From positions 953-64,952 of the forward strand of contig JAFGIW010000099.1 in the NCBI GenBank assembly GCA_016929415.1: a DNA stretch of 64,000 bases, written 5' to 3'. The notes under the pieces were generated by a model. The model ran no database searches. It was given only the letters and a program-made list of their open reading frames with translations, and had not been told where the DNA came from. Below are positions 1,107 through 18,980 of the stretch, piece by piece; the first letter of the stretch is position 1, and each line of letters opens with the position of its first letter. Position numbers and translations under genes: made by a program. This DNA is from Chitinispirillaceae bacterium. Its GTDB lineage: Bacteria > Fibrobacterota > Chitinivibrionia > Chitinivibrionales > Chitinispirillaceae.

Positions 1107-3680
1107 ATGAAATCAACCCAAGGCCTTCGGCTGCGCCACAATCTCTTTTTCCTGCTGATGCTCTGTTTCGCCGCCGCGATTTTAGGCGACAGTACGGCGG
1201 AGGCGCTGCTTCTTGCACGGTTCGGGCCCGCGTTGATCCCGCGAATGTTTTGTGTAAATGCGGCGGCGCTGTTCATTCTCTCCGCGGTGATGCTCCCGGT
1301 GGTCGACCGTCTTGACCGGAGGAAATTCTTCCTTGCTGCGCTGCTTCTTCATGGGGGGATCCTGTTTCTTTTGCGGCTGGCGTTTGCGGCAAACTGGGAT
1401 TTCCTGTATCTGCCGCTTTTCTCCTATGCCTATAGCAGCAAAATTCTCTTTTTTCTTCTTTTCTGGACAATAGCAAATGATTTGATCGATTCGCGACGCG
1501 CAGGAAAAGAATTCCCGGCGATCGCCGCCGGAGGGACGATCGGGGCGATCGCCGTTTCGTTCTCCATTCCCGGTTTGATGCGGTTCTTTGCAGTTGAAAA
1601 CCTTCTCATCGTATGGGCGCTGCTCGCAGTGGCGACCGGCATGATGCTTCTGCCGTTGCGCAAGCAATATCTGCAATGTGCATCGACTCAAAAAGAATAT
1701 CCGGACGATACTTACGCTTCATCGATGGGATTCTCGCAGTTATCGCTCCTTCGTAACGAACCGCTTCTGCGCAACATGGCGGTGCTCTATTTCCTTGTCT
1801 TTTTCCTGCTGCTCAATCAGCATGTCGTTTTTTATCGTGAGGTCAAGGATGCCTGTTCATCTGCAGGCGACATCGCGACGTTTTTGGGCGGTTTCAACGG
1901 ATTCAGCATGCTTTCGACCTGCCTGCTGCAGATAGGATTGGCCGGTCTGCTGATGCGGCGGCTCGGTTCAACACGGTCGATGCTGATCCTGCCCGCGGCG
2001 CTTCTCGGCGTTTTTGCCTCCATGACGGTGATGAGCGGGTTCCGAGATGTCGGACCTCGGTTATTGTACTGGGCCGTCATAACCGGCATGGGAATCCGGG
2101 TGGCCTTTTTCGACGCTTTTTTTTCACCCAATTTCCAGCTCTTTTTTTCAGGCCTTCCCCGGGAGATCCGTGGACGGGGCAAGCTGCTCATTGAAGGTGT
2201 TGTCAAGCCGGTGGCGATGGTCGTGGCGGGATGCTGGCTGCTATGGTGCGTTCCCCTTCTGGGTCCTCGCACCCATTTCGGATTAATGGCCGTCGCTGCC
2301 GCGGCGGCGCTCCTGTATGCAGTGCGTTTGAAACATGCCTATGCGATGACGCTCACCCGGTACCTGACCGGTTTTATTAAAAGTAAAAACACTGCGATCC
2401 TCGAACGGTTGGAGTTAACCGGGAGCGAGGATATCCTGCGGTTTCTTGCCGGCAAACTCGGTCATGAGGATTTCGAGGTGCAGAAATTTCTCATTGAAAT
2501 CATCGCCTCAACGGGCACCGAAGAAGCCGCCTTGCTCCTGCTGGAAAATCTGGAACACGCGGAAGGAAAGATCAGGGCGACGATCGTTTCCGCACTCGGG
2601 AATTTTCCGGAGTCGCTGGTTGCCGAACGATTGACGGAGTGTTTGAACGATCATGACCATCGCGTGGTGGCCAACGCGGTCGAAGCTCTTTTACAATGTA
2701 AAGAAGGCGGCCTTGACGAGTTGCTGGAACCTCTCCTTGCCCATCCGGACAGCCGTGTCCGTGTCAATACGATAGCGGCGCTCTGGCCTTCGAGCGATCA
2801 GGCCGAGAGGAAGCTCTTCGCGGGATTATTACGCGCCATGACTCTTGGCGATTCACCGGAGGATTGCGCCGGGGCGCTCTATGTAACGGGCGAAGTCCAC
2901 GATGAAATGGTGACCGTACTGCTTTATGATTTCTGCAGGTTGCATGCGGGCGGCGGTTTGCGGTCGGAGATGGTGCATCGCCAGGCGGTGATCGCATTGG
3001 GAAAGAAACGCAGCCCCGTGTCGCTGGAACTGCTGCTGCAGCTTGTCCGTTCATCTTCGCTTCGGCAGCGTAAATCGATCGTGGCGGTGCTCGGATCGAT
3101 TCTTCCCTTTATCGACGAAAACTGCTGGCGTGACACTATCGCTAAAGGAAACGCCCTCCATCGAAACTGTTTGTTGCAGGGGCTGCGCAAGGCGAAAGCG
3201 GCCGTATCACCGGAATCGGCGGCAGTGCTTAACCGGTTGGCGATCAGGGAGATCGAATCGATCGAGTGGGAAAGACTGTCGCTGCAGGTGTTGTCGTCAA
3301 GCGGTTCGGGCCGCATGGCGCTGCTTGCCTGTGCCATCCGTGAGGAACTCATCGCGATACGCCTTGATACGCTTCTGCATCTGGTGGCGCTGCTTGACCT
3401 TTCAGGCGTTATCGGCTCGGTCATTCCGCGCATCAACCATACCGATCTGCATGTACGTGCCCGCGCGCTGGAGGTCCTCGAGAACACCGGGGATGAAAAA
3501 ATTAATAGAGCGATCATCGCCTGTATCGAATGGCTCGACACCCTGCCGCCGCTTCCGCAGGAGAGCAACATGCCTGCACGGAACAAAGAGGTGTTGGTGG
3601 CGGGAACCTATTGTGCCAGCCATAACCAATGGGTCGCCACCTGTGCAGAGTATGCCTGTTCATCTTCACCTGCCGCTTGA
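1107..3680 (+). CDS. Fusion protein: NTT/TLC-like (ATP/ADP-translocase-type, MFS-like) membrane domain + C-terminal HEAT-repeat domain
   Basis: 857-aa ORF. The N-terminal ~420 aa are polytopic membrane sequence with the TLC-like stretch LFFLLFWTIANDLIDSRRAGKEFPAIAAGGTIGAI. The C-terminal ~400 aa carry repeated HEAT/PBS-lyase-like units (DHRVVANAVEALL, PDSRVRVNTIAALW, DLHVRARALEVLEN). Confidence 0.6.
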   Translation: MKSTQGLRLRHNLFFLLMLCFAAAILGDSTAEALLLARFGPALIPRMFCVNAAALFILSAVMLPVVDRLDRRKFFLAALLLHGGILFLLRLAFAANWDFLYLPLFSYAYSSKILFFLLFWTIANDLIDSRRAGKEFPAIAAGGTIGAIAVSFSIPGLMRFFAVENLLIVWALLAVATGMMLLPLRKQYLQCASTQKEYPDDTYASSMGFSQLSLLRNEPLLRNMAVLYFLVFFLLLNQHVVFYREVKDACSSAGDIATFLGGFNGFSMLSTCLLQIGLAGLLMRRLGSTRSMLILPAALLGVFASMTVMSGFRDVGPRLLYWAVITGMGIRVAFFDAFFSPNFQLFFSGLPREIRGRGKLLIEGVVKPVAMVVAGCWLLWCVPLLGPRTHFGLMAVAAAAALLYAVRLKHAYAMTLTRYLTGFIKSKNTAILERLELTGSEDILRFLAGKLGHEDFEVQKFLIEIIASTGTEEAALLLLENLEHAEGKIRATIVSALGNFPESLVAERLTECLNDHDHRVVANAVEALLQCKEGGLDELLEPLLAHPDSRVRVNTIAALWPSSDQAERKLFAGLLRAMTLGDSPEDCAGALYVTGEVHDEMVTVLLYDFCRLHAGGGLRSEMVHRQAVIALGKKRSPVSLELLLQLVRSSSLRQRKSIVAVLGSILPFIDENCWRDTIAKGNALHRNCLLQGLRKAKAAVSPESAAVLNRLAIREIESIEWERLSLQVLSSSGSGRMALLACAIREELIAIRLDTLLHLVALLDLSGVIGSVIPRINHTDLHVRARALEVLENTGDEKINRAIIACIEWLDTLPPLPQESNMPARNKEVLVAGTYCASHNQWVATCAEYACSSSPAA

Positions 3681-5817: not shown

Positions 5818-6186
5818 CTATAATTCCGCCGACTGACTGAGAATTGATTCCACCATGGCAACGAGGTGTTCATAAGCATTCGGTTCCTTGAGTATCACCG
5901 GATATCTGCAGTTGCGCGGAAGCGCTTCAGGATGGCCGGTAAAGATTATTGCCGCGACGGCAGGGTGAAGGCGCATTACTTCGGCGAGAAAATCGATGCC
6001 GTTCATTCCCGGCAGATCGAGATCGGTGATGATCAGGTCGGGCAGTTCGAAGAGATGTATTCTCCGCAATGCTTGAAACGGATCGCTGAACGGGAGTATT
6101 TTCAGATGATTGATGCTTTCAAGATTGCATCTTGTCAATTCGAGGAGATCCTCGTCGTCGTCGAGAAGCAGGATCGAGTATTCCAT
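5818..6186 (-). CDS. Single-domain response-regulator receiver (CheY-like)
   Basis: MEYSILLLDDDEDLLEL..PDLIITDLDLPGMNGIDFL..AAIIFTGH. GGAGG lies 4 nt upstream of the ATG at 6186. The ORF-track start at 6288 adds 34 implausible residues. Confidence 0.75.
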   Translation of the reverse strand: MEYSILLLDDDEDLLELTRCNLESINHLKILPFSDPFQALRRIHLFELPDLIITDLDLPGMNGIDFLAEVMRLHPAVAAIIFTGHPEALPRNCRYPVILKEPNAYEHLVAMVESILSQSAEL

Positions 6187-6358
6187 AACACCTCCGTTGC
6201 AGGGTAATGTGGGATAACGGACGATAGGTAGTGTAAGTAAAACTGTTTCGAGACCGGTGAAGGCCTGGCAGGCCGTGAGAGGAAACATTCGTATCTCCTT
6301 TAAGGAGTAATATACTCCAAACAGGAGATGGTGTCAACACTTTTCTGGGGAAACGTCA

Positions 6359-6706
6359 TTGCGGCATCTTGATGATCTCGGCTATAAAATAAGAATCCTC
6401 CGGCAGCAGCGGGGGCTTTCGCAGGCGGCGCTCGGGCAGCGACTTAATATTTCTCAGAAGGAAATATCCCATTACGAGAATAATTACCGCAGACCGCCGG
6501 CTGAAATACTGTCGGGGATTGCCCGGGTGCTGGAGACCTCCATCGCCGAACTCTACGGCGAACCCGTAAAGCCGAACACCGGCACGGCATTGAAGAAATC
6601 GACCATCTGGCTGATAGCCGAGAAACTGGAACTAATTGACGAAACGGAACGATGCAGGGTACTCAGCTACCTCGAGAGGATGATTGCCGAAAAAAAAGAC
6701 GCCTGA
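6359..6706 (+). CDS. XRE/Cro-C1 family helix-turn-helix transcriptional regulator
   Basis: LRQQRGLSQAALGQRLNISQKEISHYENNYRRP is a canonical XRE HTH. The track start is a TTG at 6359, so the exact start is uncertain. Divergent from the receiver gene. Confidence 0.7.
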   Translation: MRHLDDLGYKIRILRQQRGLSQAALGQRLNISQKEISHYENNYRRPPAEILSGIARVLETSIAELYGEPVKPNTGTALKKSTIWLIAEKLELIDETERCRVLSYLERMIAEKKDA

Positions 6707-7052: not shown

Positions 7053-7850
7053 CTATTCATTATCCGAGAAATCAGGACCGGATCGATACTTATAATCGGG
7101 AGCATTGTTGTTCCCACCCAAACCGTGCAGGACGCACCAGGCAAGAGAAAAGGATTCGGCGATCTTCCGCACCGGAGTACAGTATTTTTCACTCTGCCGT
7201 TGCAGCAGGACATCGGCGGTCTGAAGGCCTATTCCTTTTTTGGAGGCAAGAAGTCTTTTGGCGTGATCGATCATTTGGTCTTTCTCGATCTTCATCTCAT
7301 TTGCCGCCTTGATTAAGAGCAACTCTGTGTCCCTGATTACCGCCGCCGCTTTTTCCGCTATGCCGGCGAATGTCGTTATGTCGCGCTTTGAAAATGAGTA
7401 TCGTTCCGTGGTATACCAATGCGCCGCACCGATCACTTCACCATGACCGTGCATCGGAATGGACAATAATGAAACAATCCCCCCTTTTCCGCAGACGGCT
7501 ATCCGGGAATACCGGGAAATTTCCCCGATATCAATGATGGCGGCGGGAGCGTCCGCTGCTGCCACCTTCGCGGCCATTATTTTCCCGAATTTCAGAATAC
7601 GGGGTTTATTCATCAATCCGGATGCAGGATAAACAGCATGGAACCCCGGTTTATTGATCTTTTTGTCAATTATAAACACCGCGAGGAACTGCGCCCCGGT
7701 CGCCTGTGCCATGACGGTAAGAACAAAAGTAAAGAGATCCTTGAAGTATTTTTTCTCCAGGATTTTCCGGGTGATATCCGAAATCTGCTTCGCCTGAATG
7801 ACGTCAGCATCCGCAGCCTGAGCCAGGCGGGAATGTGTATCCGCCCGCAT
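7053..7850 (-). CDS. GAF-ANTAR RNA-binding antitermination-type regulator
   Basis: The C-terminus MIDHAKRLLASKKGIGLQTADVLLQRQSEKYCTPVRKIAESF fits the ANTAR helix pattern, and a ~150-aa GAF-like region precedes it. I prefer ATG 7850 (MRADTHS..), because the 77 extra residues from the track start at 8081 are Cys/Arg-rich and unprotein-like. Confidence 0.65.
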   Translation of the reverse strand: MRADTHSRLAQAADADVIQAKQISDITRKILEKKYFKDLFTFVLTVMAQATGAQFLAVFIIDKKINKPGFHAVYPASGLMNKPRILKFGKIMAAKVAAADAPAAIIDIGEISRYSRIAVCGKGGIVSLLSIPMHGHGEVIGAAHWYTTERYSFSKRDITTFAGIAEKAAAVIRDTELLLIKAANEMKIEKDQMIDHAKRLLASKKGIGLQTADVLLQRQSEKYCTPVRKIAESFSLAWCVLHGLGGNNNAPDYKYRSGPDFSDNE

Positions 7851-8099
7851 CGCGCACTTGTCAATAGTTGGATAGCTTCTCACCACCGCCTTCGCCCCTC
7901 TCCGTTGTTGTACCCGGTGTCGGCAATCCTCGTCGCTCCGGAGGTAGAAGCAGCCGGACCATCGCATGACGGGTATTCCCGATAGAACAATGTGCACCCC
8001 GCAGTCGACTGCCGGAGGCACCCGCATGATGCTTGTTGCCGCGATCGCCTGATAAATCGCCGCAACCCGGCCTGCTTTCAACCACCATTCCCTGATCGA

Positions 8100-11000
8100 C
8101 TATACCTTCCGGCTGATTGTCTCCGGTTTCTCAACCGCATCGTTTTCCGCACCCGCCAATGGAAGCAGGGTCGCGGGGTCCGTAACAGCGCCGATTTTTA
8201 TCGCATAACTGGTACGGGCCCTGATGTCCTCATCCGTTACAATATGAATATCCAACAAACCGTGGGTTGTATAACCGGTTCGCAGGTAATTCTGTTCCGA
8301 TAGACTCATACTCCAGCCTTCAAGCCAGAGCGCCAGCTCTTGCCGTTGTTGAGGTGTCCCCCGGAAGTGAACGAGAAGATCGATGTCGCTTCCCGGACCT
8401 GCGGTTGCATTGGCGGTGGACCCGAAGAGGTAGACCGCCTGCACGCCGAATCTGCCGGGATCAAGCTGGCGGGCGAGCCGTTCGGCCATCCGTGAACGCC
8501 ATCGCCAAAAATCTTCGGACTGGGGCTCGGCGGGCTTCACTAAAACGAGGGGTTCCTCGTTTACGGCGGAAGGTTCGGTAAAAAAACCGATCGCTTCGCA
8601 GAGCTCGGCATTCATCTGAATTTTCAATATTTTACCGTCCATTCTGTGCGGAACGTCGATTACACGAAGGACCCCATCCAGATGGGTATAGTCCGGCAAG
8701 ATCTCCGGCAATAGGTTGTGTGCGCTGTTGAGGAAGTGCTCGTTGAACACAACATTCTTTTCGCCCGGGTAAAGAGGGATATAGCGGATTCCCGCTTCAA
8801 CCATGTCCTGAAAAAAGTGCGTTCCAAATGAGAGTTCCGGTTCATATGCACCTTTTCTCATGGCTATCTCGATCAGCACCGCGGTATTGCAGATATCGGA
8901 ATAGGTGACCGCAACACCCTGCTTGATGTCGCCCCTGCTTCCCCACCGCCCGGGTCCCATCAGAATAAAGCGGCGTTTGGGCAGGATGGCATTCAGTCTG
9001 CCCACTGCCCGTCCGATATCCACCAGTGTGTCGCGACTGGTCTGCTCCGCATACTGTTGCGGCGACACATAGACAATGTGGGTAATGTCAGGAATGCGCC
9101 CGTTCGAGATGAAACGGTTCGCGGTAAAGAGTGTTTCCCTCTCGGGAATATCCCGTCGTATGGCGCTTGGCGCCACATTGCTCTCGGTATACTGCGGACG
9201 GCACTGGAGCAGGTAGAAGGAGACGCCGTCGGAGGCGAACTCGATGTCGACCGGTGTTCCCAACCTCTGCTGCAGCGTCAGCAGGATTGCGCGCAGCTGC
9301 TTGACAAAATCGGTGCCGTTGATGAGGCCGTCAAAAGTAAAAAGAAGTTCATCACGACGCACATCGAGCTCGATGGCGGAAGGCCGGCTGATATGCCCGT
9401 CCCGGTAGACTGAAACCATGTGATGCAGGTTGGGAAAATCATTGCCGTGTTCGCGCAGAAGACGGTCAATGGCCACGGTTTCGAATACCCCGGTTTCGAG
9501 ATTGATCACATCGACCTGCGACGGGGAGTAGTGGCGTATCTCGTCGGGGCTGGCGTTCACCCTGAGCGCCGGTTGCCCGGGTGACAGCAGTACCGGATAA
9601 TCATTGCCGATACGGTCAACCGCCCGCGTACCGAGACCCGGTACCAGCCGGACCAGACCGTCCTCACGCTTGAGCCGCGGCGACCAGCGGAATTCATTGC
9701 TGCTGAAAGCGACTCCGGCGAAGGCCGGCATAAGATTGGGGCCTACGCGCGTTCCGACGACCTCCTGGATCATGATCCCCATCTCTTCGTAGAAATCAAG
9801 CAGGCCGTGTTCGTAACGGTAAAGTATCGGGTCGGGCCCGAAGACCGAGGCATAAATCTCGGCGATTGCATCGAGCAGTGCATCGAGCCGCTCCTGCCGG
9901 TTCCCCTGATTGGACAGGAAAAGACTTTTGTACTTTCCGGAAAAAGCCGAGCCTGCACGGTCTTCGAGCAGGCTTGAACTGCGCACGATAATCGGCGAAT
10001 CGCCGAAATCATCCAGCGCCTGCGAGATTCTTGCGGAGATGTAAGCCGGAAAGCGGGCATGCTTGAAAAGCTGGATAATGTTGGGGTATTCGAAACGGAC
10101 CTGTTCAAGCTCTTTGTATTTCAGATCATGCACGTCTTCGAGTTCGTTGAAACGAAGGAATTCGGTAAGACAGTCGGCGGTCAGATACCATGTCTTCGGA
10201 GTTTTAATCCCGGCAAAGAGACCCTCCTTGTCCTCGGTACGGAGTAGGATGTGCCGGGCGAGAAACAGTCCTGTGCTTTTCCCCCCAAGACAACCGTTGC
10301 TGTCGGATGGAAAGATGATGCGGGTAACCAGGTCGAAAAAATCCGGCACTTCAAGGTGGCGTTTCGCGAGGTTGATAAAGTCGATATCGTTCGAAAAAAA
10401 CCGGCGTATAAGCGATACCCGGAGCCGCTTTTCCGTAGACGGCTCCAGCGCCGATTCGCTGTTGGAAAGGGCGCGATAACGCAGTATGGCATCGATGATC
10501 GTACCGAGCGACGCGTTGCCGGAATCCACGGCTTTGATAAGAAAGCTGAGCTTGTTTTCCTGAATCCATTTATGCAACAACGAAAGTGTTTCATCATCGC
10601 CCAGATGCTGTGCGGCGATCGAAAACACCCGGTCGCTGACGGAAAAAAAGCTCTCCCGCGATTGTTTCCGGCTGGGAGAGTTGGCATCTGACGATCCTTC
10701 GGCGTGATGTTCGACAAACTCATTTCCAAAAGCGTTCAACACCTGGCGCGCTTCCTTGATGCCGCTCCAGAAGAGATGGTAAAGCATTTTCCGGGAGATG
10801 TAAAGAAAGAGTTTCTCATCGGTATGGCGTAACAGGTTGACGATGGCCATCCATTCGTGATTACGTTTAGTGCCTGTTGCCCGGTCGGTCGCTTCCCGGT
10901 CACGCAACAACTGTTCCAACTTGCGGTGAAACGCGGTCTGACCGATACGATCGGCGATGGTGCGGAGAAGTTGGCGCTCTTTCCTGAGAAAGCAATCCTC

Positions 11001-11324
11001 ACCCGGGGCGGATACCTGACTTATATAGGAGACCTCAATGACTCCGGTGGTATGGTCCCCCTCTTTGATCGGGACGGTGTCCATCCATTCCGTTGCAACA
11101 TACCCGGCTGGTTCGTACGCCGTTTCTTCATAGACAATCCTCGCCTGACAGAGCTTAGGGTACTGCCAGCCGGAAGGGATCGCCGCGATGATGTCGCGGA
11201 AAATATCCGGCAAGGGACGGGAATTGCCGGAAAGCAGTTTTTCAATCTGGTAGAGGCAGTTAAGCTCTTTGGCCCTTTCGAGCAAAACCAGAACCCGTCC
11301 CGATGCCTGTTTTTTTTCACCCAT
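8100..11324 (-). CDS. Multidomain enzyme: N-terminal KELxCLY sensor-like module + PEP/pyruvate-binding (PPDK_N, ATP-grasp) domain + C-terminal Pol-beta-type nucleotidyltransferase domain
   Basis: PPDK_N-like strings: CLGGKSTGLFLA, IIVRSSSLLEDRAGSAFSGKYKSLFL, MGIMIQEVVG, LVPGLGTRAVD, DIEFASDGVSFYLLQCRP. The C-terminal AVYLFGSTANATAGPGSDIDLLVHF is the NTase GS..DxD signature. Preferred start is ATG 11324 (MGEKKQ) with GGAAGG upstream; the track start is 11363. Confidence 0.7.
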   Translation of the reverse strand: MGEKKQASGRVLVLLERAKELNCLYQIEKLLSGNSRPLPDIFRDIIAAIPSGWQYPKLCQARIVYEETAYEPAGYVATEWMDTVPIKEGDHTTGVIEVSYISQVSAPGEDCFLRKERQLLRTIADRIGQTAFHRKLEQLLRDREATDRATGTKRNHEWMAIVNLLRHTDEKLFLYISRKMLYHLFWSGIKEARQVLNAFGNEFVEHHAEGSSDANSPSRKQSRESFFSVSDRVFSIAAQHLGDDETLSLLHKWIQENKLSFLIKAVDSGNASLGTIIDAILRYRALSNSESALEPSTEKRLRVSLIRRFFSNDIDFINLAKRHLEVPDFFDLVTRIIFPSDSNGCLGGKSTGLFLARHILLRTEDKEGLFAGIKTPKTWYLTADCLTEFLRFNELEDVHDLKYKELEQVRFEYPNIIQLFKHARFPAYISARISQALDDFGDSPIIVRSSSLLEDRAGSAFSGKYKSLFLSNQGNRQERLDALLDAIAEIYASVFGPDPILYRYEHGLLDFYEEMGIMIQEVVGTRVGPNLMPAFAGVAFSSNEFRWSPRLKREDGLVRLVPGLGTRAVDRIGNDYPVLLSPGQPALRVNASPDEIRHYSPSQVDVINLETGVFETVAIDRLLREHGNDFPNLHHMVSVYRDGHISRPSAIELDVRRDELLFTFDGLINGTDFVKQLRAILLTLQQRLGTPVDIEFASDGVSFYLLQCRPQYTESNVAPSAIRRDIPERETLFTANRFISNGRIPDITHIVYVSPQQYAEQTSRDTLVDIGRAVGRLNAILPKRRFILMGPGRWGSRGDIKQGVAVTYSDICNTAVLIEIAMRKGAYEPELSFGTHFFQDMVEAGIRYIPLYPGEKNVVFNEHFLNSAHNLLPEILPDYTHLDGVLRVIDVPHRMDGKILKIQMNAELCEAIGFFTEPSAVNEEPLVLVKPAEPQSEDFWRWRSRMAERLARQLDPGRFGVQAVYLFGSTANATAGPGSDIDLLVHFRGTPQQRQELALWLEGWSMSLSEQNYLRTGYTTHGLLDIHIVTDEDIRARTSYAIKIGAVTDPATLLPLAGAENDAVEKPETISRKV

Positions 11325-11392
11325 CGCTATTTGCCTTCCATAATCTTTGCGGCAAATACACACCTATAAAGAGCTTCACACGCATGATAACC

Positions 11393-12679
11393 TTATGCCC
11401 ATCCGCGTAACGTTACGGCCTGCGCTACGCGATTGATGGCGATCACGTATGCCGCATCTCTCATGTAGAGCTTTTTCTGGCGTGCAAGTTCACTTACCGC
11501 CTTAAACGCGGAAGTCATCTTCACATCCAGTTTCTCCAGTACTTCATTCTTTTCCCAGAAATAATTCATGTTACACTGCACCTGCTCGAAATAACTGCAT
11601 GTTACTCCGCCGGCGTTGGTAAGGAAATCTGGCAGCAGCATGATGTTGCGCTGTTTGATGACCTCATCCGCTTCGGGTGTGGTTGGGCCGTTTGCGCCTT
11701 CGACGATCACCTTGATACTCTTGGCGATGTTCTGCACATTGCTGTTGTTGATCTGGTTTTCAAGGGCGGCGGGGATAAGAATATCGACTTCCTGTTCAAG
11801 CCATTTTTCACCCGGCAGCATCTCGTAGCCCAGTTCGCGGGCGCGGTTCTTGTCGATCCCGCCGAACTTGTCCGAAATACCAAGCAGCTCTTCAACGTTG
11901 ACACCGTTCTTTTTACAGTAGGTATAGGCTTTTTTATCGGCCTGATCCCAGCAGGAGATCGCGATCACCTTGCCACCGAGTTGTGTATACATCCTGATCG
12001 CATATTGCGCGACATTGCCGAATCCCTGCACGCTTGCAGTGGTTTTTTCAGGGGCAATACCCATTTCCTTGAGCGCTTCGCGTAAGACAAAGATCACGCC
12101 GAATCCCGTAGCCTCAGTCCGGCCCTGCGAACCGCCCATGCCGACCGGTTTACCGGTAATAAAACCCGGATAGCGGCCGCCGTGAATCGCCTCAAACTCG
12201 TCCAATATCCAGAGCATATGCTGTCCGTTGGTCATCACGTCCGGTGCAGGCACGTCACTGAAAGGACCGACGTTTCTTGCGATCTGGCGTACCCAGCCTC
12301 GACAGATCTGTTCCTGCTCCTTAAGACTGAGATGGTGCGGATCGCAGATAACTCCCCCCTTGGCTCCGCCCAGCGGGATATCGACCACCGAACATTTCCA
12401 GGTCATCCACATCGAAAGTGCGCGAACGGTGTCGATCGTCTCCATCGGATGAAAACGGATGCCGCCTTTTGCCGGACCGCGCGCGTCGTTATGCTGTACA
12501 CGAAAGCCCTTGAAGATTTTAATCTTCCCGTCATCCATGCGTACCGGAATGGTGAAATGATACTCACGCATCGGCTGGCGTAAAAGCTCCTTCACGCCAT
12601 CATCAAGCTCCAGGATGGCGGCGACCTTGTCGAATTGAGACTGTGCTACCTGATACGGGTTATACGAAGGTGTTTCCAT
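11393..12679 (-). CDS. gdhA: Glutamate dehydrogenase (NAD(P)-dependent, hexameric type)
   Basis: 428 aa with GPAKGGIRFHP, PLGGAKGGV and the dinucleotide-fold motif VQGFGNVAQY, at typical length. Confidence 0.9.
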   Translation of the reverse strand: METPSYNPYQVAQSQFDKVAAILELDDGVKELLRQPMREYHFTIPVRMDDGKIKIFKGFRVQHNDARGPAKGGIRFHPMETIDTVRALSMWMTWKCSVVDIPLGGAKGGVICDPHHLSLKEQEQICRGWVRQIARNVGPFSDVPAPDVMTNGQHMLWILDEFEAIHGGRYPGFITGKPVGMGGSQGRTEATGFGVIFVLREALKEMGIAPEKTTASVQGFGNVAQYAIRMYTQLGGKVIAISCWDQADKKAYTYCKKNGVNVEELLGISDKFGGIDKNRARELGYEMLPGEKWLEQEVDILIPAALENQINNSNVQNIAKSIKVIVEGANGPTTPEADEVIKQRNIMLLPDFLTNAGGVTCSYFEQVQCNMNYFWEKNEVLEKLDVKMTSAFKAVSELARQKKLYMRDAAYVIAINRVAQAVTLRGWA

Positions 12680-12814
12680 ACATTCATACCCTTTCTTATT
12701 GCGATAGAGACACTAGGTTTATTGGATGTAACCCTGACTGAGTGATTCCTCGATTCCTGCTGATTTTAGCGATGCACTCTGCCGCGGTTCTGTAACGATG
12801 GTCGCCGGAAGGCA

Positions 12815-13087
12815 TCACGCATACTCTTCACAATGCCAGATTCCACCCGGGGTTTTCGAATTCGCGCAGGTAGTTCTATTACCGCAGTCACAGCACAGGC
12901 CCAAGGCAATATCGATATGTTTCTCCGGTATGCTCGTGACGGTAGCAAGAACATTATGCGTCAGTGCCGATGCGTCGTCGAATTCTTCACAAAAAAAAAC
13001 ATGACGGGTATGACCCGGGAGGCGCTCGCATGCCTCGATATTGTTGCAGGTGGTACAGATGCCTGCCGTTTTTTTCACTTGTGTCAT
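12815..13087 (-). CDS. Small Cys-rich protein with an internal duplication (probable metal or Fe-S binding)
   Basis: MTQVKKTAGICTTCNNIEACERLPGHTRHVFFCEEF...GLCCDCGNRTTCANSKTPGGIWHCEEYA contains two copies of CX2CX5CX11-12CEE[FY]. GGGAGAAAGGG lies upstream of ATG 13087. Sits directly downstream of a sigma54-type promoter. Confidence 0.5.
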   Translation of the reverse strand: MTQVKKTAGICTTCNNIEACERLPGHTRHVFFCEEFDDASALTHNVLATVTSIPEKHIDIALGLCCDCGNRTTCANSKTPGGIWHCEEYA

Positions 13088-13149
13088 CAACACCCTTTCT
13101 CCCGTTTGGAAGTGCCATGATGCGGTATCTAATAAAAAATGAAGATAAC

Positions 13150-13165
13150 TGCAATCCCCGTACCA
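13150..13165 (-). promoter_or_regulatory. Sigma54 (RpoN) -24/-12 promoter
   Basis: The minus strand reads TGGTACGGGGATTGCA. Against the consensus TGGCACG-N4-TTGCW this is one mismatch with exact GG-to-GC spacing. It lies ~60 nt upstream of the Cys-rich ORF and immediately downstream of a sigma54-dependent activator gene. Confidence 0.55.
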
Positions 13166-13445
13166 GAAAAGAATGGCGGCGTATACCTTGCACTTAATTT
13201 AACCTAACACTATGATTTTTAAGGTGTAATGAAGCAACAATGCCCGATTGCCGGCACGGTAACGGTAGTATAACGCTTTTAGCGATCGTTCTGATAGGTG
13301 GGGAATATTGAACCAGTGGGGAGAAATTCATCAGTTCGGAGCATGCAGAATAAAGAACCAAAGCAATACAGACTGCGTGACCATTTTCCGACACACAGCC
13401 AGATAGGGCGTGGTCTTGCTTTTTGCGAAAGACTCCTGCGTATAA

Positions 13446-14792
13446 TCATTCCAGTTTGTATCGCTTCATTTTTTCGCGCAGGGTCTTGCGATCGATACCT
13501 AAACTCTCCGATGCGCGCGTCTTGTTGCCGCCAACATGCGCCAATACGTTCCGTATATGTGCGGCTTCAAGTTCGGCAAGCGTCCGGTTCACGCCGGCCA
13601 CGCGCGCGGCAGAATAGCGGGTGGGGGCGGGTAAATGCGGTACATCGACTGTCTCCGCGTCGTTCATCACGATGGTGCGCTGGATGGCGTTTTCCAGCTC
13701 CCGGACATTGCCGGGCCACGAGTATCGTTTCAGCGCGGCGATCGCCCTATCGGAAAAACGCGGTGTCGGTTTGCCGAGTTCCGCGGAGAATTTTTCGGTA
13801 AAGTGATTTGCTAAAAGTACTATATCGGTGCCTCGTTCGCGCAGGGGAGGTATGTCGATGGTGATCACGTTTATCCGGTAATACAGTTCTTCCCTGAACA
13901 TCCTGTTCTGGATGAGGCTGAGAAGGTCTTTATTGGTGGCTGCGATCACCCGTACGTCAATTTTTCTGGGCCTTGAATCACCCACCATTGAAACCTCTTT
14001 TTCCTGCAATACTCTTAAAAGTTTCACCTGCATGGCAAGAGATGTCTCGCCGATTTCATCCAGAAAGAGCGTTCCGCCATCGGCAGTCTGGAAAAAACCA
14101 GCACGGGACTCGTGGGCTCCCGTAAAAGAGCCTTTTACATGGCCGAAAAGTTCGCTCTCAAGCAGGGTTTCGGGAATGCTGCCGCAGTTGACGGGAATGA
14201 AAGGGGCGGTCGCCCGGGAGCTGCAGTAATGAATCGCGCGCGCCACAAGCTCCTTTCCGCTGCCGCTTTCGCCGGTTACCAGGACCGTCGCCGATGATGA
14301 CGATGCTTTTCGTATCGAGAAGAAAACCTTTCGCATGGCATCCGATTCTCCGATAAGACCGTAGCGGTTTTGAGTGCATGTCTTCTTGTTCTGCAATAAT
14401 GTCCGTCGTTGCGCGAGTTTTTCCAGGACGCGCCGCACCGTGCGGAAAAGCTCTTCATCGGTAAACGGCTTGGCCAGATACTCCTCCGCACCGCACTTGA
14501 CGGCTTCCACCGCGCTTTGAATGGTCGCGTATCCCGTAATCATCATCACTTCCGTATCAGCGTGGTTTTCACGTATGTGCCTGATAAGATCCATACCGCT
14601 GACTCTGGGCATTTTGAGATCGGTGATGACCAGATCGACCGGTGTCGATTCAAGAATATCCAGGGCCTCGGTCGCGCTGTAGGCGGTATAAACGGTATAT
14701 CCCTGGTCGTGCAGGTTTCTCTGAAGCACCTCCACCGTGCCGGGGGTGTCGTCGACGACAAGGATGCCATATTTTACAGCTGTTTGGCTCAT
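13446..14792 (-). CDS. Sigma54-dependent response regulator (NtrC family: REC + AAA+ + Fis-type HTH)
   Basis: REC: ILVVDDTPG..DLVITDLKMP. AAA+: GESGSGKE, ESELFGH, GSFTGA (GAFTGA variant), GGTLFLDEIGE. HTH: GGNKTRASESLGIDRKTLREKM. Start overlaps the kinase stop as ATGA (14789-14792). Confidence 0.9.
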   Translation of the reverse strand: MSQTAVKYGILVVDDTPGTVEVLQRNLHDQGYTVYTAYSATEALDILESTPVDLVITDLKMPRVSGMDLIRHIRENHADTEVMMITGYATIQSAVEAVKCGAEEYLAKPFTDEELFRTVRRVLEKLAQRRTLLQNKKTCTQNRYGLIGESDAMRKVFFSIRKASSSSATVLVTGESGSGKELVARAIHYCSSRATAPFIPVNCGSIPETLLESELFGHVKGSFTGAHESRAGFFQTADGGTLFLDEIGETSLAMQVKLLRVLQEKEVSMVGDSRPRKIDVRVIAATNKDLLSLIQNRMFREELYYRINVITIDIPPLRERGTDIVLLANHFTEKFSAELGKPTPRFSDRAIAALKRYSWPGNVRELENAIQRTIVMNDAETVDVPHLPAPTRYSAARVAGVNRTLAELEAAHIRNVLAHVGGNKTRASESLGIDRKTLREKMKRYKLE

Positions 14793-16087
14793 CCGCTTGC
14801 CCCTTGAAGCACGATATCGGTATCAACCGGCAGTCGTATGGTGAACATCGCACCGTTTCCGGGAGAGCTTTTTACCGAGATGGTTCCGCAGTGAGAAGTC
14901 ACAATGCCGTGTACCACGGGCAATCCCAGTCCGGTTCCCTGATCGACCTCCTTTGTTGTAAAAAAAGGAACGAATATCCGATCGAGAATTTCCCTGGTCA
15001 TGCCTTTTCCCGTATCCGCTATTGAACAGAGCAGGTGCATGCCTTCAACAGCCGTGTGTACCTTCAATATGCCCCCTGTGGGCATGGCCTGAATCGCATT
15101 CACGAGAAGGTTGACTATTACCTGCTTCAGTTGTCCGCCATCCGCGAAAATCAGCGGCAGTTGCGGGGAGAAATCCCTGACAAGCTCTATCCCCCCTTTC
15201 TTCAACCGATGCTCGAACAGCCCGAGCGCTTCGGACACCGTATCGTTGAAATTGACCCGGCCTTTGAAGGTCGGCGTCTGCCGCGCGAAGAGAAGAAGCT
15301 TTTTTATTATTTCCCGTGCATACAGGGAAGCTTCGATGATTTTATCAAGATCTTCAACTGCTTTCCAGGGCAACTCAGGATGTTTGCGCATGAGTTGGGC
15401 GAACCCGAGGATGCTGCTCAGCGGTTCATTCAGTTCATGCGCGACGCCTGCTGCCAGTTGTCCGATCGTGGCGAGACGATCGGCATGAATCAGCTGCTTC
15501 TGTAAATCCTCCTTTTCCGCTTCCGCCTGCCGGCGTTCGATGATGAACGCTATTTGCCGTGCAATCGCCCTGATGAGATGCAATTCCTCCCTAAGAAATT
15601 TTTTCCCTTCAACACCCGATCCGCGTTGAACATAAAATACTTCAACCCTCCCCCTGCATTTTTCTTCGGCAATAACCGGTGCGGATAGTTTTTTATGACT
15701 TTCCATGAAATTCGATGAGTGGAATGATTGACCGTCCACTTCAATGCGGGCCGCCGCCGCTTCCGGATATTGCCATGCGGGAGGGATTACCTCGACAATA
15801 TCCTGAAATACGCTGTCAGGGAGCGCAGCATTTTTTTCGGATATCCTGCTTATGCTGTAGAGACACGTCAGTTCCTTTATCCGTTCGTGCAATGCACGGG
15901 CAGTCTCCCGCTCCTTCGACACCTGTGGTCGTTTTGTTGATAAAACTGGTATTTTTGTCATAGAAGATCTTCCCGTTCGATTCATGGACGGAGTTTCGGT
16001 CTTATCGGTAGCAGGAGAGGATGCCTGCCAAACCAGCCGGTAATCGAAGCCGGAATGGAAAATAAATAACCGAAACAGTTCCATCAT
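14789..16087 (-). CDS. Sensor histidine kinase with N-terminal KELxCLY module (no obvious TM segment)
   Basis: H-box VAHELNEPLSSI, N-box LLVNAIQAM, G1 DTGKGM, G2 GTGLGLPVV. Start is ambiguous: ATGs at 16087, 15985 and 15961 are all in frame. Confidence 0.85.
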   Translation of the reverse strand: MMELFRLFIFHSGFDYRLVWQASSPATDKTETPSMNRTGRSSMTKIPVLSTKRPQVSKERETARALHERIKELTCLYSISRISEKNAALPDSVFQDIVEVIPPAWQYPEAAAARIEVDGQSFHSSNFMESHKKLSAPVIAEEKCRGRVEVFYVQRGSGVEGKKFLREELHLIRAIARQIAFIIERRQAEAEKEDLQKQLIHADRLATIGQLAAGVAHELNEPLSSILGFAQLMRKHPELPWKAVEDLDKIIEASLYAREIIKKLLLFARQTPTFKGRVNFNDTVSEALGLFEHRLKKGGIELVRDFSPQLPLIFADGGQLKQVIVNLLVNAIQAMPTGGILKVHTAVEGMHLLCSIADTGKGMTREILDRIFVPFFTTKEVDQGTGLGLPVVHGIVTSHCGTISVKSSPGNGAMFTIRLPVDTDIVLQGASG

Positions 16088-16179
16088 AGGGTTGAGTGTA
16101 GAAAGGGTGATTTCTCACCGGCGTGAAATGAAGATAGTATATTTGATGGTTTCCAAAACTATAATCGAGGAGAATAAGG

Positions 16180-17697: not shown

Positions 17698-17712
17698 AAT
17701 ACATGGTCAGGC

Positions 17713-17754
17713 AATAAACCACGGGGCGGTTGACTTCTCTGCGGTTTATTTCTT
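17713..17754 (+). terminator. Possible intrinsic terminator after the DUF1846 gene
   Basis: AATAAACC (17713-17720) pairs with GGTTTATT (17743-17750), with further imperfect inner pairs, followed by TCTT. The loop is long, so this is only moderately convincing. Confidence 0.4.
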
Positions 17755-17912
17755 GCCACTTCCGAGAGACCGGAACATAAGCACCCCGATGATATAAGGT
17801 TACAACCGGAAAAATGGCTTCTTTACGTACTTTCCGTCAGAATCCCCTCGCCGGCCTGTCGTTTCCCGCATCCCCCTGCGGGGGATTGTCATGGGACCGG
17901 TTGGTTGCCGGG

Positions 17913-18980
17913 TTACGGTTTTCCCAATATCCTTCCCGCCGCTTCCATCACCCGCTCGACCTCAATACCCTTAAGGCAGTCAAGCGATCGGCACGTTACC
18001 GGTTTGTAGGCATAGCAGGGCCGGCAGGCAACGGGCGCGGTTAGGATAACTGATCGATTGCCGAGCGGCGCTGTCTTGTAATCAAGCGTCGGCCCGAAGA
18101 TCGCCAGCACCGTCGCTCCGGCTGCGGCGGCGAGGTGCATGGGGCCGCTGTCGTTGCTGACGAAGAGGGATGCATGTTTCATGACCTCGAAGCTTTGCCG
18201 TATGGTAAGTTCTCCGGCGGACGAGATGGCGAAGTTTCCGATCCGCTGCGCGGCATTGGCCGCAGCCTCCGCTTCCTCCGGCCCGCCGAAAATGACTATG
18301 CGGCAGGCGAAGCGTTCGACAAGCCTGCGACCAACCTCGATGAACCGCTCGACAGGCCACCGTTTGTAGCTCATGGCAGGACCGCTGCCGAGGTGCAGGC
18401 CTGCCCAGCGGCTGTTGAGGCGGTTTGCCGAAAGGAATCGTTGCGCCGCGTCGCGATCTTTCGCATTTGTCCATACCGTTGGAGCTGGAGGTTCTACCTC
18501 CGGCGATAAGGCGCCGATCAGCCGAAAATTCACCGTGCTTTCGTGAAGCGTTTCATCAAAGGGGATGGTGATATTGTAAAGGAACCTCCCCGCGCCGAAC
18601 GACTCGCCGAGCCGCAGCCGGGCGCCGCAAAGCAGTCCGATCAGGCCGCATTTGAGCGGGTTGGTGCCGCTGGCCGCGACCACCAGACCGGGCTTTATGC
18701 GGCGCAGGCGTGCGACAAGCATCGGCAGTGAGTGGATTGATGCCGCAGTTTCGATAATTTCACCGCTACGCGGATGGCACTCCACCACTTGGCGGGAATT
18801 GTTTTTCGGGAGCAGGAAATGAAGGCGCGCACGGGGGGCGGCTTTTTCGAATGCCTGCAAAGCCGGGGTGAGCAGCACTAGATTGCCGATACCTCCCATG
18901 CTGATAAACAGGGCGTCATTAATGCCGGAGAGCGGTGGTAAGGGGGCGCCGTGAGGTTTACGGGGCAATGTAGGAAACAT
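17913..18980 (-). CDS. Glycosyltransferase family 9 (heptosyltransferase-like)
   Basis: ALFISMGGIGNLVLLTPAL N-terminus and FVSNDSGPMHLAAAAGATVLAIFGPT are typical of GT9. Confidence 0.8.
   Translation of the reverse strand: MFPTLPRKPHGAPLPPLSGINDALFISMGGIGNLVLLTPALQAFEKAAPRARLHFLLPKNNSRQVVECHPRSGEIIETAASIHSLPMLVARLRRIKPGLVVAASGTNPLKCGLIGLLCGARLRLGESFGAGRFLYNITIPFDETLHESTVNFRLIGALSPEVEPPAPTVWTNAKDRDAAQRFLSANRLNSRWAGLHLGSGPAMSYKRWPVERFIEVGRRLVERFACRIVIFGGPEEAEAAANAAQRIGNFAISSAGELTIRQSFEVMKHASLFVSNDSGPMHLAAAAGATVLAIFGPTLDYKTAPLGNRSVILTAPVACRPCYAYKPVTCRSLDCLKGIEVERVMEAAGRILGKP

What the first reader, a model, noticed from the sequence alone, without database searches (positions are those of the whole stretch)
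8100..11324. Unusual domain fusion: KELxCLY sensor module + PPDK_N-type ATP-grasp + Pol-beta nucleotidyltransferase
The central region has the hallmark strings of the PEP/pyruvate-binding (ATP-grasp) domain of PEP synthase, PPDK and rifampicin phosphotransferase: VRSSSLLEDRAGSAFSGKY, MGIMIQEVVG, GLGTRAVD, DIEFA..YLLQCRP. I see no swivelling phospho-histidine domain after it. Instead there is a ~200-aa unassigned segment (..LMGPGRWGSRGDIKQGVAVTYSDI..ELSFGTHFFQDMVEAGIRYIPLYPGE..) and a terminal MNT-like NTase (LFGS..GPGSDIDLLVHF).

This is a kinase-type ATP-grasp and a nucleotidyltransferase in one chain, preceded by a putative sensor. It suggests a regulated protein- or small-molecule-modifying enzyme of unknown specificity.
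Basis: partly seen in the sequence, partly recalled or inferred. Interest (0 to 1): 0.6.

Follow-up and report, generated by a model that had tools for sequence, protein, structure and literature searches.

The report
Glutamate-dehydrogenase-linked sensor ATP-grasp/nucleotidyltransferase enzyme
This is a real 1074-residue enzyme from a widespread but uncharacterised family whose gene almost always sits directly behind a special glutamate dehydrogenase gene, so it is probably an undescribed signal-controlled switch for that nitrogen enzyme.

Summary
Window 8100-11324 (minus strand) encodes one 1074-aa protein with five parts:
- a GAF-like sensor (1-150);
- a helical domain (151-345);
- an intact PPDK_N ATP-grasp (346-724, Pfam E 2e-56);
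- a new alpha/beta "X" domain (725-925) with an invariant His836;
- an MNT-type nucleotidyltransferase (938-1056) with invariant GS...DxD...D.

There is no swivel phosphohistidine domain and no PEP-utilizer C domain.

The fusion is not rare. I found over 6000 homologues in at least 584 species, at 50-83% identity across phyla. None is described in the papers searched.

In 92 of 100 loci with enough flank, a distinct GDH subfamily lies directly upstream. In half of these a short PPDK_N-X paralogue lies in between, and the two are sometimes fused. A metallophosphoesterase often follows. In 121 genomes of the own phylum, this GDH type and the enzyme co-occur 7 of 7 and 0 of 114.

A second paralogue in this genome precedes gltBD.

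Best reading (about 0.45): a sensor-controlled covalent modifier of the linked GDH. The target and the chemistry are inferred, not shown.

The scan found this family before on other DNA (e1-3104742, e1-4939905, e1-1421572).

The parts
8100..11324 (-). Coding sequence of the 1074-aa enzyme (ENZ), stop codon included. ATG 11324 is the preferred start; GTG 11363 is the alternative.
10875..11324 (-). Residues 1-150: the KELxCLY module. It has a GAF-like fold with invariant Cys23 and Cys59.
   Evidence: AlphaFold model with pLDDT about 90 here. Foldseek hits to GAF domains of NifA, Nlh1 and sensor kinases: prob 1.0, E 0.013-0.1, TM 0.5-0.6 on the target. Invariant residues. No Pfam GAF hit.
10290..10874 (-). 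Residues 151-345: all-helical domain of unknown function. It holds a disordered loop (203-217) with an invariant N215-x-P217-S218 motif.
9153..10289 (-). Residues 346-724: PPDK_N-type ATP-grasp nucleotide-binding domain. The GGK349, VR448SSS, DIE695F and LQ707xR709P motifs are invariant.
   Evidence: Pfam E 2.4e-56; invariant columns; residues checked
8550..9152 (-). Residues 725-925: the 'X' domain, a new alpha/beta domain that follows this kind of ATP-grasp in every full-length form listed. Its invariant motifs are GNG, GxGRWG[ST], E819, SxG[ST]-H836-FF and Y848.
   Evidence: Model pLDDT is mostly 85-95. Alignment of long, short and gltB-linked paralogues. No PDB sequence match and no similarity to the swivel domain profile. 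Found in 2415 representative clusters.
8817..8819 (-). Codon of His836, the only histidine invariant in all three paralogue classes. It is predicted to lie at the N-terminus of a helix and is the candidate phospho-carrier residue (inference).
8157..8513 (-). Residues 938-1056: minimal (MNT-type, Pol-beta superfamily) nucleotidyltransferase domain with G968-S969, D980-x-D982 and D1025.
   Evidence: Pfam. Foldseek hits to 2rff, MntA (8xeo, 7ae9, 7bxo) and AadA/ANT enzymes. Invariant columns.
11393..12679 (-). Glutamate dehydrogenase of the ENZ-linked subfamily (428 aa), 68 nt upstream of ENZ on the same strand.
   Evidence: Pfam; NCBIfam and PDB best matches are the ~420-aa archaeal/Thermotoga/RocG type; linkage
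11924..11953 (-). GDH residues 243-252: a subfamily-specific 6-residue insertion (CWDQxD) plus conserved Tyr252, after the second strand of the dinucleotide-binding fold. It is absent from all 13 unlinked GDHs compared (12 from the phylum sample plus this genome's second GDH).
   Evidence: the gap is also visible against 1gtm
7053..8081 (-). GAF-ANTAR protein gene, 18 nt downstream of ENZ. It is probably co-transcribed here but is not a conserved part of the module.
   Evidence: Pfam. Absent downstream of ENZ in 80 + 79 related loci. No relatives found in the metagenome scan.
12815..13093 (-). Small Cys-rich ORF (92 aa), the first gene after the sigma54-like site. Weak homologues sit in the same position in L025, L059 and L165.
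13151..13165 (-). Sigma54-like -24/-12 element (TGGTAC-N5-TTGC, one mismatch), 58 nt before the Cys-rich ORF. Only the position is suggestive, because such matches occur in the window at chance rate.
13446..14792 (-). NtrC-type sigma54 activator (receiver, AAA+ and Fis HTH domains).
   Evidence: the same arrangement occurs in L025, L078 and L165
14789..16087 (-). Histidine kinase. Its residues 66-180 (nt 15548-15892) are the same GAF-like KELxCLY module as in ENZ.

Best explanation
ENZ is the sensor-bearing catalytic component of a dedicated post-translational control system for the glutamate dehydrogenase encoded directly upstream.

Shown:
- The architecture is a GAF-like sensor, a helical domain, an intact PPDK_N ATP-grasp, a new domain X with an invariant histidine, and an MNT-type nucleotidyltransferase with an intact catalytic motif.
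- Its gene is linked almost without exception to one GDH subfamily.
- A short PPDK_N-X paralogue is a frequent partner and is sometimes fused to it.
- A metallophosphoesterase gene often follows.

Inferred mechanism:
- A metabolite reporting nitrogen/carbon status binds the GAF-like module. The same module sits on the histidine kinase that, through the NtrC-type activator and a sigma54 promoter, would drive transcription of the operon.
- Binding switches the catalytic part on or off.
- The ATP-grasp splits ATP as in PEP synthase or PPDK and loads a phosphoryl group on His836 of domain X, which replaces the missing swivel domain.
- The phosphoryl group is then passed to the target.
- Where present, the C-terminal NTase adds a nucleotidyl group, as MntA, GlnE and GlnD do to proteins.
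- The target is most likely the linked GDH. A candidate site is its subfamily-specific loop with Tyr252 next to the coenzyme pocket.
- Where present, the metallophosphoesterase would reverse the mark.
For: Architecture and intact catalytic motifs.

Linkage to GDH:
- GDH at >=55% identity lies upstream on the same strand in 58 of 62 genome loci and 34 of 38 metagenome loci with enough flank (raw data).
- Co-occurrence in 121 genomes of the own phylum: the linked GDH type (67-85% identity) is in 7 genomes. Each has ENZ, or its start at a contig end, directly downstream. All other GDHs are <=44% identical, and no ENZ orthologue was found in the other 114 genomes.
- Pairwise divergence of GDH and ENZ is correlated (Spearman 0.59, 50 loci), which fits joint inheritance.

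The linked GDH is a distinct subfamily, with a 6-residue insertion and Tyr252 at the coenzyme-binding fold and three subfamily-specific cysteines.

Other evidence:
- Partner genes: a short PPDK_N-X paralogue lies between GDH and ENZ in 45 of 92 loci and is fused to ENZ in 1631-aa proteins with two PPDK_N domains. A calcineurin-like metallophosphoesterase follows in 34 of 80 loci.
- Sensor logic: the GAF-like module is shared with the adjacent kinase, and the HK-NtrC-Cys-GDH-ENZ order recurs in L025, L078 and L165.
- Link to glutamate metabolism: a paralogue (PPDK_N-X, no NTase) sits directly before gltB-gltD near amtB and asnB in this genome. The same pairing occurs in 11-12 of about 16 orthologous loci.

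Precedents:
- MntA, an MNT protein, AMPylates a protein (PMC7641770, listed).
- A truncated PPDK acts as a regulatory autophosphorylating kinase (VadK preprint).
- GDH is RpoN-dependent in Geobacter sulfurreducens (PMC2725144), and Geobacter has a family member.
Against: - No biochemical datum exists for any member. Target, chemistry and ligand are all inferred from context.
- Gene adjacency fits a metabolic partnership as well as a regulatory one.
- The NTase domain is missing from Geobacter-type and other ~920-aa members, and no separate NTase gene lies nearby. Nucleotidylylation therefore cannot be the core activity.
- The metallophosphoesterase is present in fewer than half of the loci and was not found in this genome with the query used.
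- His836 as phospho-carrier rests only on invariance and helix-N-terminal position. Domain X shows no detectable similarity to the swivel domain (hhalign probability 0.2%).
- The GAF-like assignment rests on Foldseek E-values of only 0.013-0.1.
- The sigma54 site match is at chance frequency.
Confidence: 0.45

Rival explanations
1. ENZ is a metabolic enzyme acting on a small molecule of the glutamate/2-oxoglutarate/ammonia node. The ATP-grasp/X module would phosphorylate a metabolite made or used by the linked GDH, and the NTase would convert the phospho-compound into an NDP-linked product. This would resemble the glutamine kinase Cj1418 and cytidylyltransferase Cj1416 of the Campylobacter phosphoramidate pathway (recalled from the literature, not tested here). 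A sub-variant is that the product is an unusual nucleotide cofactor used by the linked GDH, whose coenzyme loop is altered.
For: Tight operon linkage with an enzyme rather than a regulator. A kinase-type and a nucleotidyltransferase-type activity lie in one chain. The linked GDH carries an insertion exactly at the dinucleotide-binding fold. Other PPDK_N enzymes phosphorylate small molecules: NCBIfam matches to RPH and PigC/RedH.
Against: A GAF-like sensor shared with a histidine kinase is typical of signalling proteins. No further pathway enzymes are conserved in the neighbourhood. The NTase is dispensable in several lineages. A paralogue is linked to a different enzyme, GOGAT, which suits a family of enzyme regulators better than one pathway. 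A phosphoesterase neighbour would create a futile cycle.
Confidence: 0.2
2. ENZ regulates the GDH without covalently modifying it. It would be a nucleotide- or energy-charge- and metabolite-sensing partner that binds the GDH hexamer allosterically, or a maker of a signalling nucleotide. Its ATP-grasp and NTase sites would serve mainly as ligand-binding or autoregulatory (auto-modifying) sites.
For: Same linkage data. The sensor domain. An invariant N-x-P-S motif in a disordered loop of ENZ itself could be an auto-modification site. Known precedent, from memory only: Thermus GDH is controlled by binding of an adenine-phosphoribosyltransferase homologue.
Against: All residues expected for catalysis in the ATP-grasp and the NTase are invariant over wide phylogenetic distances. 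That argues for turnover rather than mere binding. A neighbouring metallophosphoesterase suggests a removable phospho(di)ester mark.
Confidence: 0.12
3. It is an ordinary PEP synthase, pyruvate phosphate dikinase or rifampin phosphotransferase that is mis-split or divergent.
For: Public annotations call homologues 'phosphoenolpyruvate synthase' or 'pyruvate, phosphate dikinase'. NCBIfam gives weak partial hits.
Against: No PF00391 or PEP-utilizers_C hit. NCBIfam scores are 10-65 bits against cut-offs of 600-1000. Domain X is unrelated to the swivel profile. The genome has its own canonical PEP-utilizer proteins.
Confidence: 0.01
4. The MNT-like domain marks a toxin-antitoxin or phage-defence module.
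For: PADLOC candidate family PDC-S09 and the MntA model hit the ~40-residue NTase core.
Against: No HEPN partner. The hits are confined to the generic GS...DxD core. The conserved partner is a housekeeping-type enzyme gene across phyla. The domain is the tail of a 1074-aa protein.
Confidence: 0.02

Closest known systems
PEP-utilising dikinases: PEP synthase (PpsA), pyruvate phosphate dikinase (PPDK) and rifampin phosphotransferase (RPH)
   Same: Homologous PPDK_N ATP-grasp domain with all nucleotide-binding motifs intact. ATP is probably split with transfer through a histidine.
   Different: No swivel phosphohistidine domain (PF00391) and no PEP/pyruvate or rifampin-binding domain. Instead there is a new domain X, plus a sensor and an NTase. 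Linked to GDH rather than to carbon metabolism or antibiotic resistance.
VadK (Rv1127c) of Mycobacterium tuberculosis, a truncated PPDK reported as an autophosphorylating regulatory kinase (bioRxiv 10.1101/2025.10.30.685616)
   Same: A PPDK-derived protein that has lost the PEP/pyruvate domain and is proposed to regulate metabolic enzymes rather than make PEP (abstract).
   Different: By its authors' description VadK evolved from PPDK and autophosphorylates on a catalytic histidine. ENZ has domain X in place of the PPDK phosphohistidine domain, a GAF-like sensor and an NTase. VadK's partners are methylcitrate-cycle enzymes, not GDH. I did not compare the sequences directly.
GlnE (glutamine synthetase adenylyltransferase) and GlnD (PII uridylyltransferase)
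   Same: Pol-beta-superfamily nucleotidyltransferases that reversibly nucleotidylylate a tyrosine of a nitrogen-assimilation protein in response to 2-oxoglutarate/glutamine status (established knowledge). This is the functional analogy proposed here for GDH.
   Different: No GlnE or GlnD family HMM matched. ENZ has a single minimal MNT-type domain, an ATP-grasp module those enzymes lack and its own sensor. The target would be GDH.
MntA/MNT minimal nucleotidyltransferases of HEPN-MNT toxin-antitoxin pairs
   Same: Best structural and HMM matches of the C-terminal domain. MntA AMPylates a protein (PMC7641770).
   Different: No HEPN partner. The domain is fused to a large enzyme, and the scores are below the MntA family cut-off (28.6 against 60 bits).
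GAF sensor domains (for example NifA and Nlh1 of sigma54 activators)
   Same: The fold of residues 1-150, and the setting in a nitrogen-related, sigma54-linked context.
   Different: No Pfam GAF hit. The module is shorter, with its own invariant KELxCLY and Cys motifs. Its ligand is unknown.

Membership tests
PEP-utilising dikinases (PpsA/PPDK/RPH) | N-terminal ATP-grasp nucleotide-binding domain (PF01326) | tested here: met
   E 2.4e-56, profile positions 4-322 of 328; the motif residues are invariant
PEP-utilising dikinases (PpsA/PPDK/RPH) | Swivel phosphohistidine domain (PF00391, GG-x-TSH-AA motif) | tested here: not met
   No hit at E<=1. Profile-profile comparison of domain X with 20 swivel domains from related genomes gives probability 0.2%.
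PEP-utilising dikinases (PpsA/PPDK/RPH) | Third, substrate-binding domain (PEP-utilizers_C TIM barrel or rifampin-binding domain) | tested here: not met
   No Pfam hit. Foldseek on the C-terminal model finds only NTase folds. NCBIfam scores are far below every equivalog cut-off.
Minimal nucleotidyltransferases (MNT, Pol-beta superfamily, PF01909/PF18765) | HMM match over the curated cut-off | tested here: met
   35.9 bits against 21, and 31.3 against 26.9
Minimal nucleotidyltransferases (MNT, Pol-beta superfamily, PF01909/PF18765) | Catalytic G[SG]-x(9-13)-DxD plus a third acidic residue | tested here: met
   G968-S969, D980, D982 and D1025 are invariant in 31 NTase-bearing homologues
Minimal nucleotidyltransferases (MNT, Pol-beta superfamily, PF01909/PF18765) | MNT fold | tested here: met
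   Foldseek hits 2rff at E 1e-3 and MntA structures at E 5e-3 to 1.5e-2, prob 0.93-1.0, target TM 0.36-0.54; model pLDDT is about 90 in this domain
HEPN-MNT toxin-antitoxin (MntA equivalog) | Adjacent HEPN toxin gene and a score over the MntA cut-off | tested here: not met
   28.6 bits against a cut-off of 60; the neighbours are GDH and GAF-ANTAR
GlnE/GlnD nitrogen-signal nucleotidyltransferases | GlnE or GlnD family domains | tested here: not met
   No such Pfam or NCBIfam family is listed at E<=1
GlnE/GlnD nitrogen-signal nucleotidyltransferases | Reversible nucleotidylylation of a nitrogen-assimilation protein | not testable with these tools
   Needs biochemistry; only gene context points this way
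GAF domain | GAF fold | tested here: inconclusive
   Foldseek prob 1.0 and target TM 0.5-0.6, but E only 0.013-0.1; no Pfam GAF hit

The most novel reading that the evidence does not exclude
PPDK_N-X proteins are a previously unrecognised family of signal-controlled covalent regulators of the glutamate-forming enzymes. The GDH-linked long and short forms would switch a special GDH on and off by phosphoryl and/or nucleotidyl transfer through a new histidine-bearing domain. The gltB-linked paralogue would do the same for glutamate synthase. Together they would be a counterpart, in many mostly anaerobic phyla, of the GlnE/GlnD control of glutamine synthetase.
Probability: 0.3. Interest if true: 0.85.

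Novelty: new variant of a known kind. Interest (0 to 1): 0.68.

Why it matters
Glutamate dehydrogenase sits at the junction of carbon and nitrogen metabolism. A dedicated covalent control system like the one known for glutamine synthetase has not, to my knowledge, been described for bacterial GDH.

This family has three notable properties:
- It is large: over 6000 proteins, and at least 2400 50%-identity clusters carry the new domain.
- It is conserved at 50-80% identity across phyla.
- It is welded to one GDH subfamily.

If it modifies that GDH, it would add a new branch to bacterial nitrogen regulation. It would also define the chemistry of a new histidine-bearing domain that replaces the swivel domain of dikinases. 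Finally, it would correct thousands of 'PEP synthase' and 'pyruvate phosphate dikinase' annotations.

A family member is recorded under a Geobacter multispecies accession. I recall that genus as genetically tractable, so the idea is directly testable.

Tried and rejected
I took context from the search for related loci and the genome search instead.
- **Structure searches for domain X.** The VIA-align libraries (pdb_via, pdb_via_wide) were not on the machine, and the ESM Atlas could not read the sequence. The fold of domain X could therefore only be searched with Foldseek inside a two-domain model, where all listed hits were to the NTase.
- **Domain X against known sequences.** Domain X against PDB sequences gave only chance-level hits to longin domains, E 0.09-0.2. 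Domain X against a swivel-domain profile gave no similarity.
- **Expression.** No RNA holder was listed for the operon. This says nothing about expression.
- **GAF-ANTAR as part of the module: rejected.** It is absent downstream of ENZ in 159 related loci, and no relatives were retrieved from metagenome contigs.
- **Metallophosphoesterase in this genome.** It was not found with the L076 query. The genome is 91% complete, so this does not show absence.
- **Separate NTase gene beside NTase-less members.** None was seen within 3.5 kb downstream in six loci.
- **Defence system.** Only generic MNT-core hits appeared in PADLOC.
- **Literature.** Four full-text searches found no description of the family or of a GDH-modifying enzyme of this kind.
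- **Sigma54 site.** The match count in the window equals chance, so I give it little weight.


Full report
**1.

Window 8100-11363 is a single open frame on the minus strand. ATG 11324 is the likely start. It has a GGAAGG about 9 nt upstream, and the homologues begin at the same methionine. That gives a protein of 1074 residues, called ENZ below.

- Pfam places PPDK_N at residues 346-724 (E 2.4e-56). It places NTP_transf_2/Polbeta at 959-1002, over the curated cut-offs.
- Nothing matches PEP-utilizers or PEP-utilizers_C even at E<=1.
- NCBIfam models for PEP synthase, RPH and PigC/RedH match only the first part of the ATP-grasp, at a tenth or less of their cut-offs.
- The genome has canonical PEP-utilizer proteins elsewhere. 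ENZ is therefore not the cell's PEP synthase or PPDK.

**2. Anatomy**

I folded the two unassigned ends using alignments of 31 homologues each.

N-terminal model (pLDDT 80):
- Residues 1-150 form a long helix, a five-strand sheet and a long helix.
- Foldseek matches this part to GAF domains, including those of the sigma54 activators NifA and Nlh1. Probability is 1.0 and target TM 0.5-0.6, but E is only 0.013-0.1.
- I therefore call the KELxCLY module GAF-like, with moderate confidence.
- Cys23 and Cys59 are invariant.
- Residues 151-345 are all-helical with no match. A disordered loop there carries an invariant N-x-P-S motif.

C-terminal model (pLDDT 82):
- An alpha/beta domain (residues 725-925, "X") is joined by a disordered linker to a compact NTase domain.
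- The NTase matches minimal nucleotidyltransferases: 2rff at E 1e-3, plus MntA and the AadA/ANT enzymes.
- G968-S969, D980-x-D982 and D1025 are invariant.

In the ATP-grasp, the GGK, VRSSS, DIEF and LQxRP motifs are invariant. From my knowledge of PPDK, these hold the ATP/Mg ligands.

**3. Domain X**

- X has no Pfam hit and no PDB sequence relative by profile search.
- It shows no similarity to a profile of 20 swivel phosphohistidine domains taken from related genomes: hhalign probability 0.2%.
- It is nevertheless conserved in three paralogous classes: the long ENZ type, a short ~585-aa PPDK_N-X type and a gltB-linked type.
- The invariant motifs are GNG, GxGRWG[ST], a Glu, SxG[ST]HFF and a Tyr.
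- His836 is the only histidine invariant in all three classes. In the model it opens a helix, as the catalytic His does in swivel domains. Its role as phospho-carrier is my inference.
- A profile search of 1.84 billion representatives finds X in 2415 clusters (832 at E<=1e-30). In every listed protein over 560 aa, X starts at or after about residue 360, which leaves room for a PPDK_N before it.
- The VIA structural libraries and the ESM Atlas were unavailable, so the fold class of X remains open.

**4. The family is large and conserved, not an odd local fusion**

- The word-indexed search gave 6274 hits. Full-length proteins of ~1060 aa show 54-83% identity in Chitinispirillaceae, Phycisphaerae, Kiritimatiellae, Spirochaetota, Planctomycetes, Aminicenantes and others.
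- In one-genome-per-species contigs, 584 stretches encode a relative, in more than a dozen phyla.
- Variants are NTase-less ~915-930-aa forms (Geobacter and others) and ~1630-aa forms with two PPDK_N domains, which are the short paralogue fused to the long one.
- Public names are 'PEP/pyruvate-binding domain-containing protein', 'nucleotidyltransferase domain-containing protein', 'phosphoenolpyruvate synthase' or 'hypothetical'.
- Four full-text literature searches found no description.

**5. Gene context is the main new evidence**

In the window, ENZ lies 68 nt behind a 428-aa glutamate dehydrogenase and 18 nt before a GAF-ANTAR gene. Further upstream are a small Cys-rich ORF, a sigma54-like site, an NtrC-type activator and a histidine kinase.

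- The kinase carries the same GAF-like module as ENZ: 35% identity, E 6e-21.
- Across 159 related loci, GDH at >=55% identity lies upstream on the same strand in 92 of the 100 with enough flank. In 47 it is directly adjacent. In 45 there is a gap of 400 nt or more, which the gene maps show to hold the short PPDK_N-X paralogue.
- A calcineurin-like metallophosphoesterase follows ENZ in 34 of 80 genome loci.
- The HK-NtrC-Cys-GDH-ENZ order recurs in three other lineages (L025, L078, L165). The ANTAR gene recurs nowhere, so I do not count it as part of the module.

**6. Co-occurrence test**

I sampled 121 genomes of the window's own phylum.
- GDHs of the linked type (67-85% identity) occur in seven genomes. 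In all seven, ENZ follows directly; in one, a contig end cuts ENZ after its N-terminal module.
- All other GDHs are at most 44% identical, and no ENZ orthologue was found in the other 114 genomes.
- Linked GDHs are 61-99% identical to one another across phyla, and their divergence tracks that of ENZ: Spearman 0.59 over 1225 pairs that are not independent.
- The pair therefore behaves as one inherited, probably horizontally mobile, unit.
- This genome also has a second, ordinary GdhA-type GDH elsewhere.

**7. The linked GDH is a distinct subfamily**

- It belongs to the ~420-aa archaeal/Thermotoga/RocG type. Its best solved relative is 1gtm.
- All 57 linked sequences carry a six-residue insertion (CWDQxD) followed by a conserved Tyr, directly after the second strand of the dinucleotide-binding fold.
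- They also carry three subfamily-specific cysteines.
- All 13 unlinked GDHs compared lack both features: 12 from the phylum sample plus this genome's second GDH.
- This loop next to the coenzyme pocket is a natural candidate for a docking or modification site. That is inference only.

**8. A second link to glutamate synthesis**

- The only paralogue in this genome is 900 aa. It has PPDK_N plus X, an unrelated N-terminus and no NTase, and is 34% identical to ENZ over 600 residues.
- It sits directly before gltB-gltD, in a contig that also carries amtB and asnB.
- The paralogue-gltB pairing is kept in 11-12 of about 16 orthologous loci in the phylum.
- Two branches of the PPDK_N-X family are thus each tied to one of the two glutamate-forming enzymes.

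**9. Interpretation**

The best reading (about 0.45) is a signal-controlled covalent modifier of the linked GDH, working as follows:
- the GAF-like module senses a metabolite;
- the ATP-grasp loads His836 of X from ATP;
- the phosphoryl group goes to the target;
- the NTase, where present, adds a nucleotidyl group;
- the metallophosphoesterase, where present, removes the mark.

The sensor shared with the adjacent kinase would couple transcriptional and post-translational control, as NtrB/NtrC and GlnE/GlnD do for glutamine synthetase.

Precedents:
- protein AMPylation by MntA (PMC7641770);
- a truncated PPDK acting as a regulatory kinase (VadK preprint);
- RpoN-dependence of GDH in Geobacter (PMC2725144).

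Weak points:
- There is no biochemistry for any member.
- The NTase is dispensable in some lineages.
- The phosphoesterase is absent from many loci and was not found here.
- Adjacency equally suits a metabolic partnership.

Rivals:
- a small-molecule enzyme of the glutamate node (0.2);
- a non-covalent or auto-modifying allosteric partner (0.12);
- an ordinary dikinase (0.01);
- a toxin-antitoxin or defence module (0.02).

**10. Relation to earlier notes of this scan**

The same family was noted on other genomes. Three follow-ups reached the same GDH-linked reading: e1-3104742, e1-4939905 and e1-1421572. They are not independent evidence.

I re-derived the linkage here and added five things, as far as the summaries shown to me go:
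- the strict co-occurrence count within one phylum;
- the GDH subfamily signature;
- the gltBD-linked paralogue;
- the negative swivel-profile test;
- the finding that the ANTAR gene is not part of the module.

**11. Verdict**

The feature is real. It is an uncharacterised variant of the dikinase/nucleotidyltransferase enzyme kinds, with a well-supported functional association and an untested mechanism.

Noticed in passing
G000:C139 (L084) 10987-19829, outside the window: A 900-aa paralogue (PPDK_N plus domain X, different N-terminus, no NTase) lies directly upstream of gltB-gltD. amtB, asnB, a radical-SAM/SPASM gene and a methyltransferase lie nearby. The paralogue-gltB pairing is kept in 11-12 of about 16 orthologous loci in the phylum.
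   Followed up: partly
window 11924-11953 (-), GDH residues 243-252: The ENZ-linked GDH subfamily has a six-residue insertion (CWDQxD) and a conserved Tyr at the dinucleotide-binding fold, plus three subfamily-specific Cys (112, 126, 361). All 13 unlinked GDHs compared lack them.
   Followed up: partly
window 7053-8081 (-): A GAF-ANTAR RNA-binding regulator gene lies 18 nt after ENZ. It is found in none of 159 related loci, and no relatives came back from the metagenome scan. Its RNA target is unknown.
   Followed up: partly
window 10671-10682 (-), ENZ residues 215-218: An invariant N-x-P-S motif lies inside a disordered loop (pLDDT below 50) of the helical domain. It could be a docking or auto-modification site.
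   Followed up: no
L069:4689-7703 and proteins of ~990-1008 aa: Further PPDK_N-X architectures exist, including one with an N-terminal response-regulator receiver domain directly upstream of a long ENZ. This suggests that two-component input can replace the GAF-like sensor.
   Followed up: no
window 12815-13093 (-): A 92-aa Cys-rich ORF with no Pfam hit lies between the sigma54-like site and GDH. Weak homologues sit in the same position in L025, L059 and L165.
   Followed up: partly
G000:C132:13602-14333 (L144), outside the window: The genome has a second, ~449-aa GDH, so the ENZ-linked GDH is an extra, specialised copy.
   Followed up: partly
window 1107-3680 (+): An 857-aa protein has a weak TLC ATP/ADP-transporter-like N-terminal half (E 0.001, below cut-off) and HEAT repeats.
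   Followed up: no
window 5818-6288 (-) and 6359-6706 (+): A 156-aa stand-alone receiver-domain protein and a 115-aa HTH_3 (Cro/C1-type) protein lie between the UvrD-like helicase gene and the operon.
   Followed up: no
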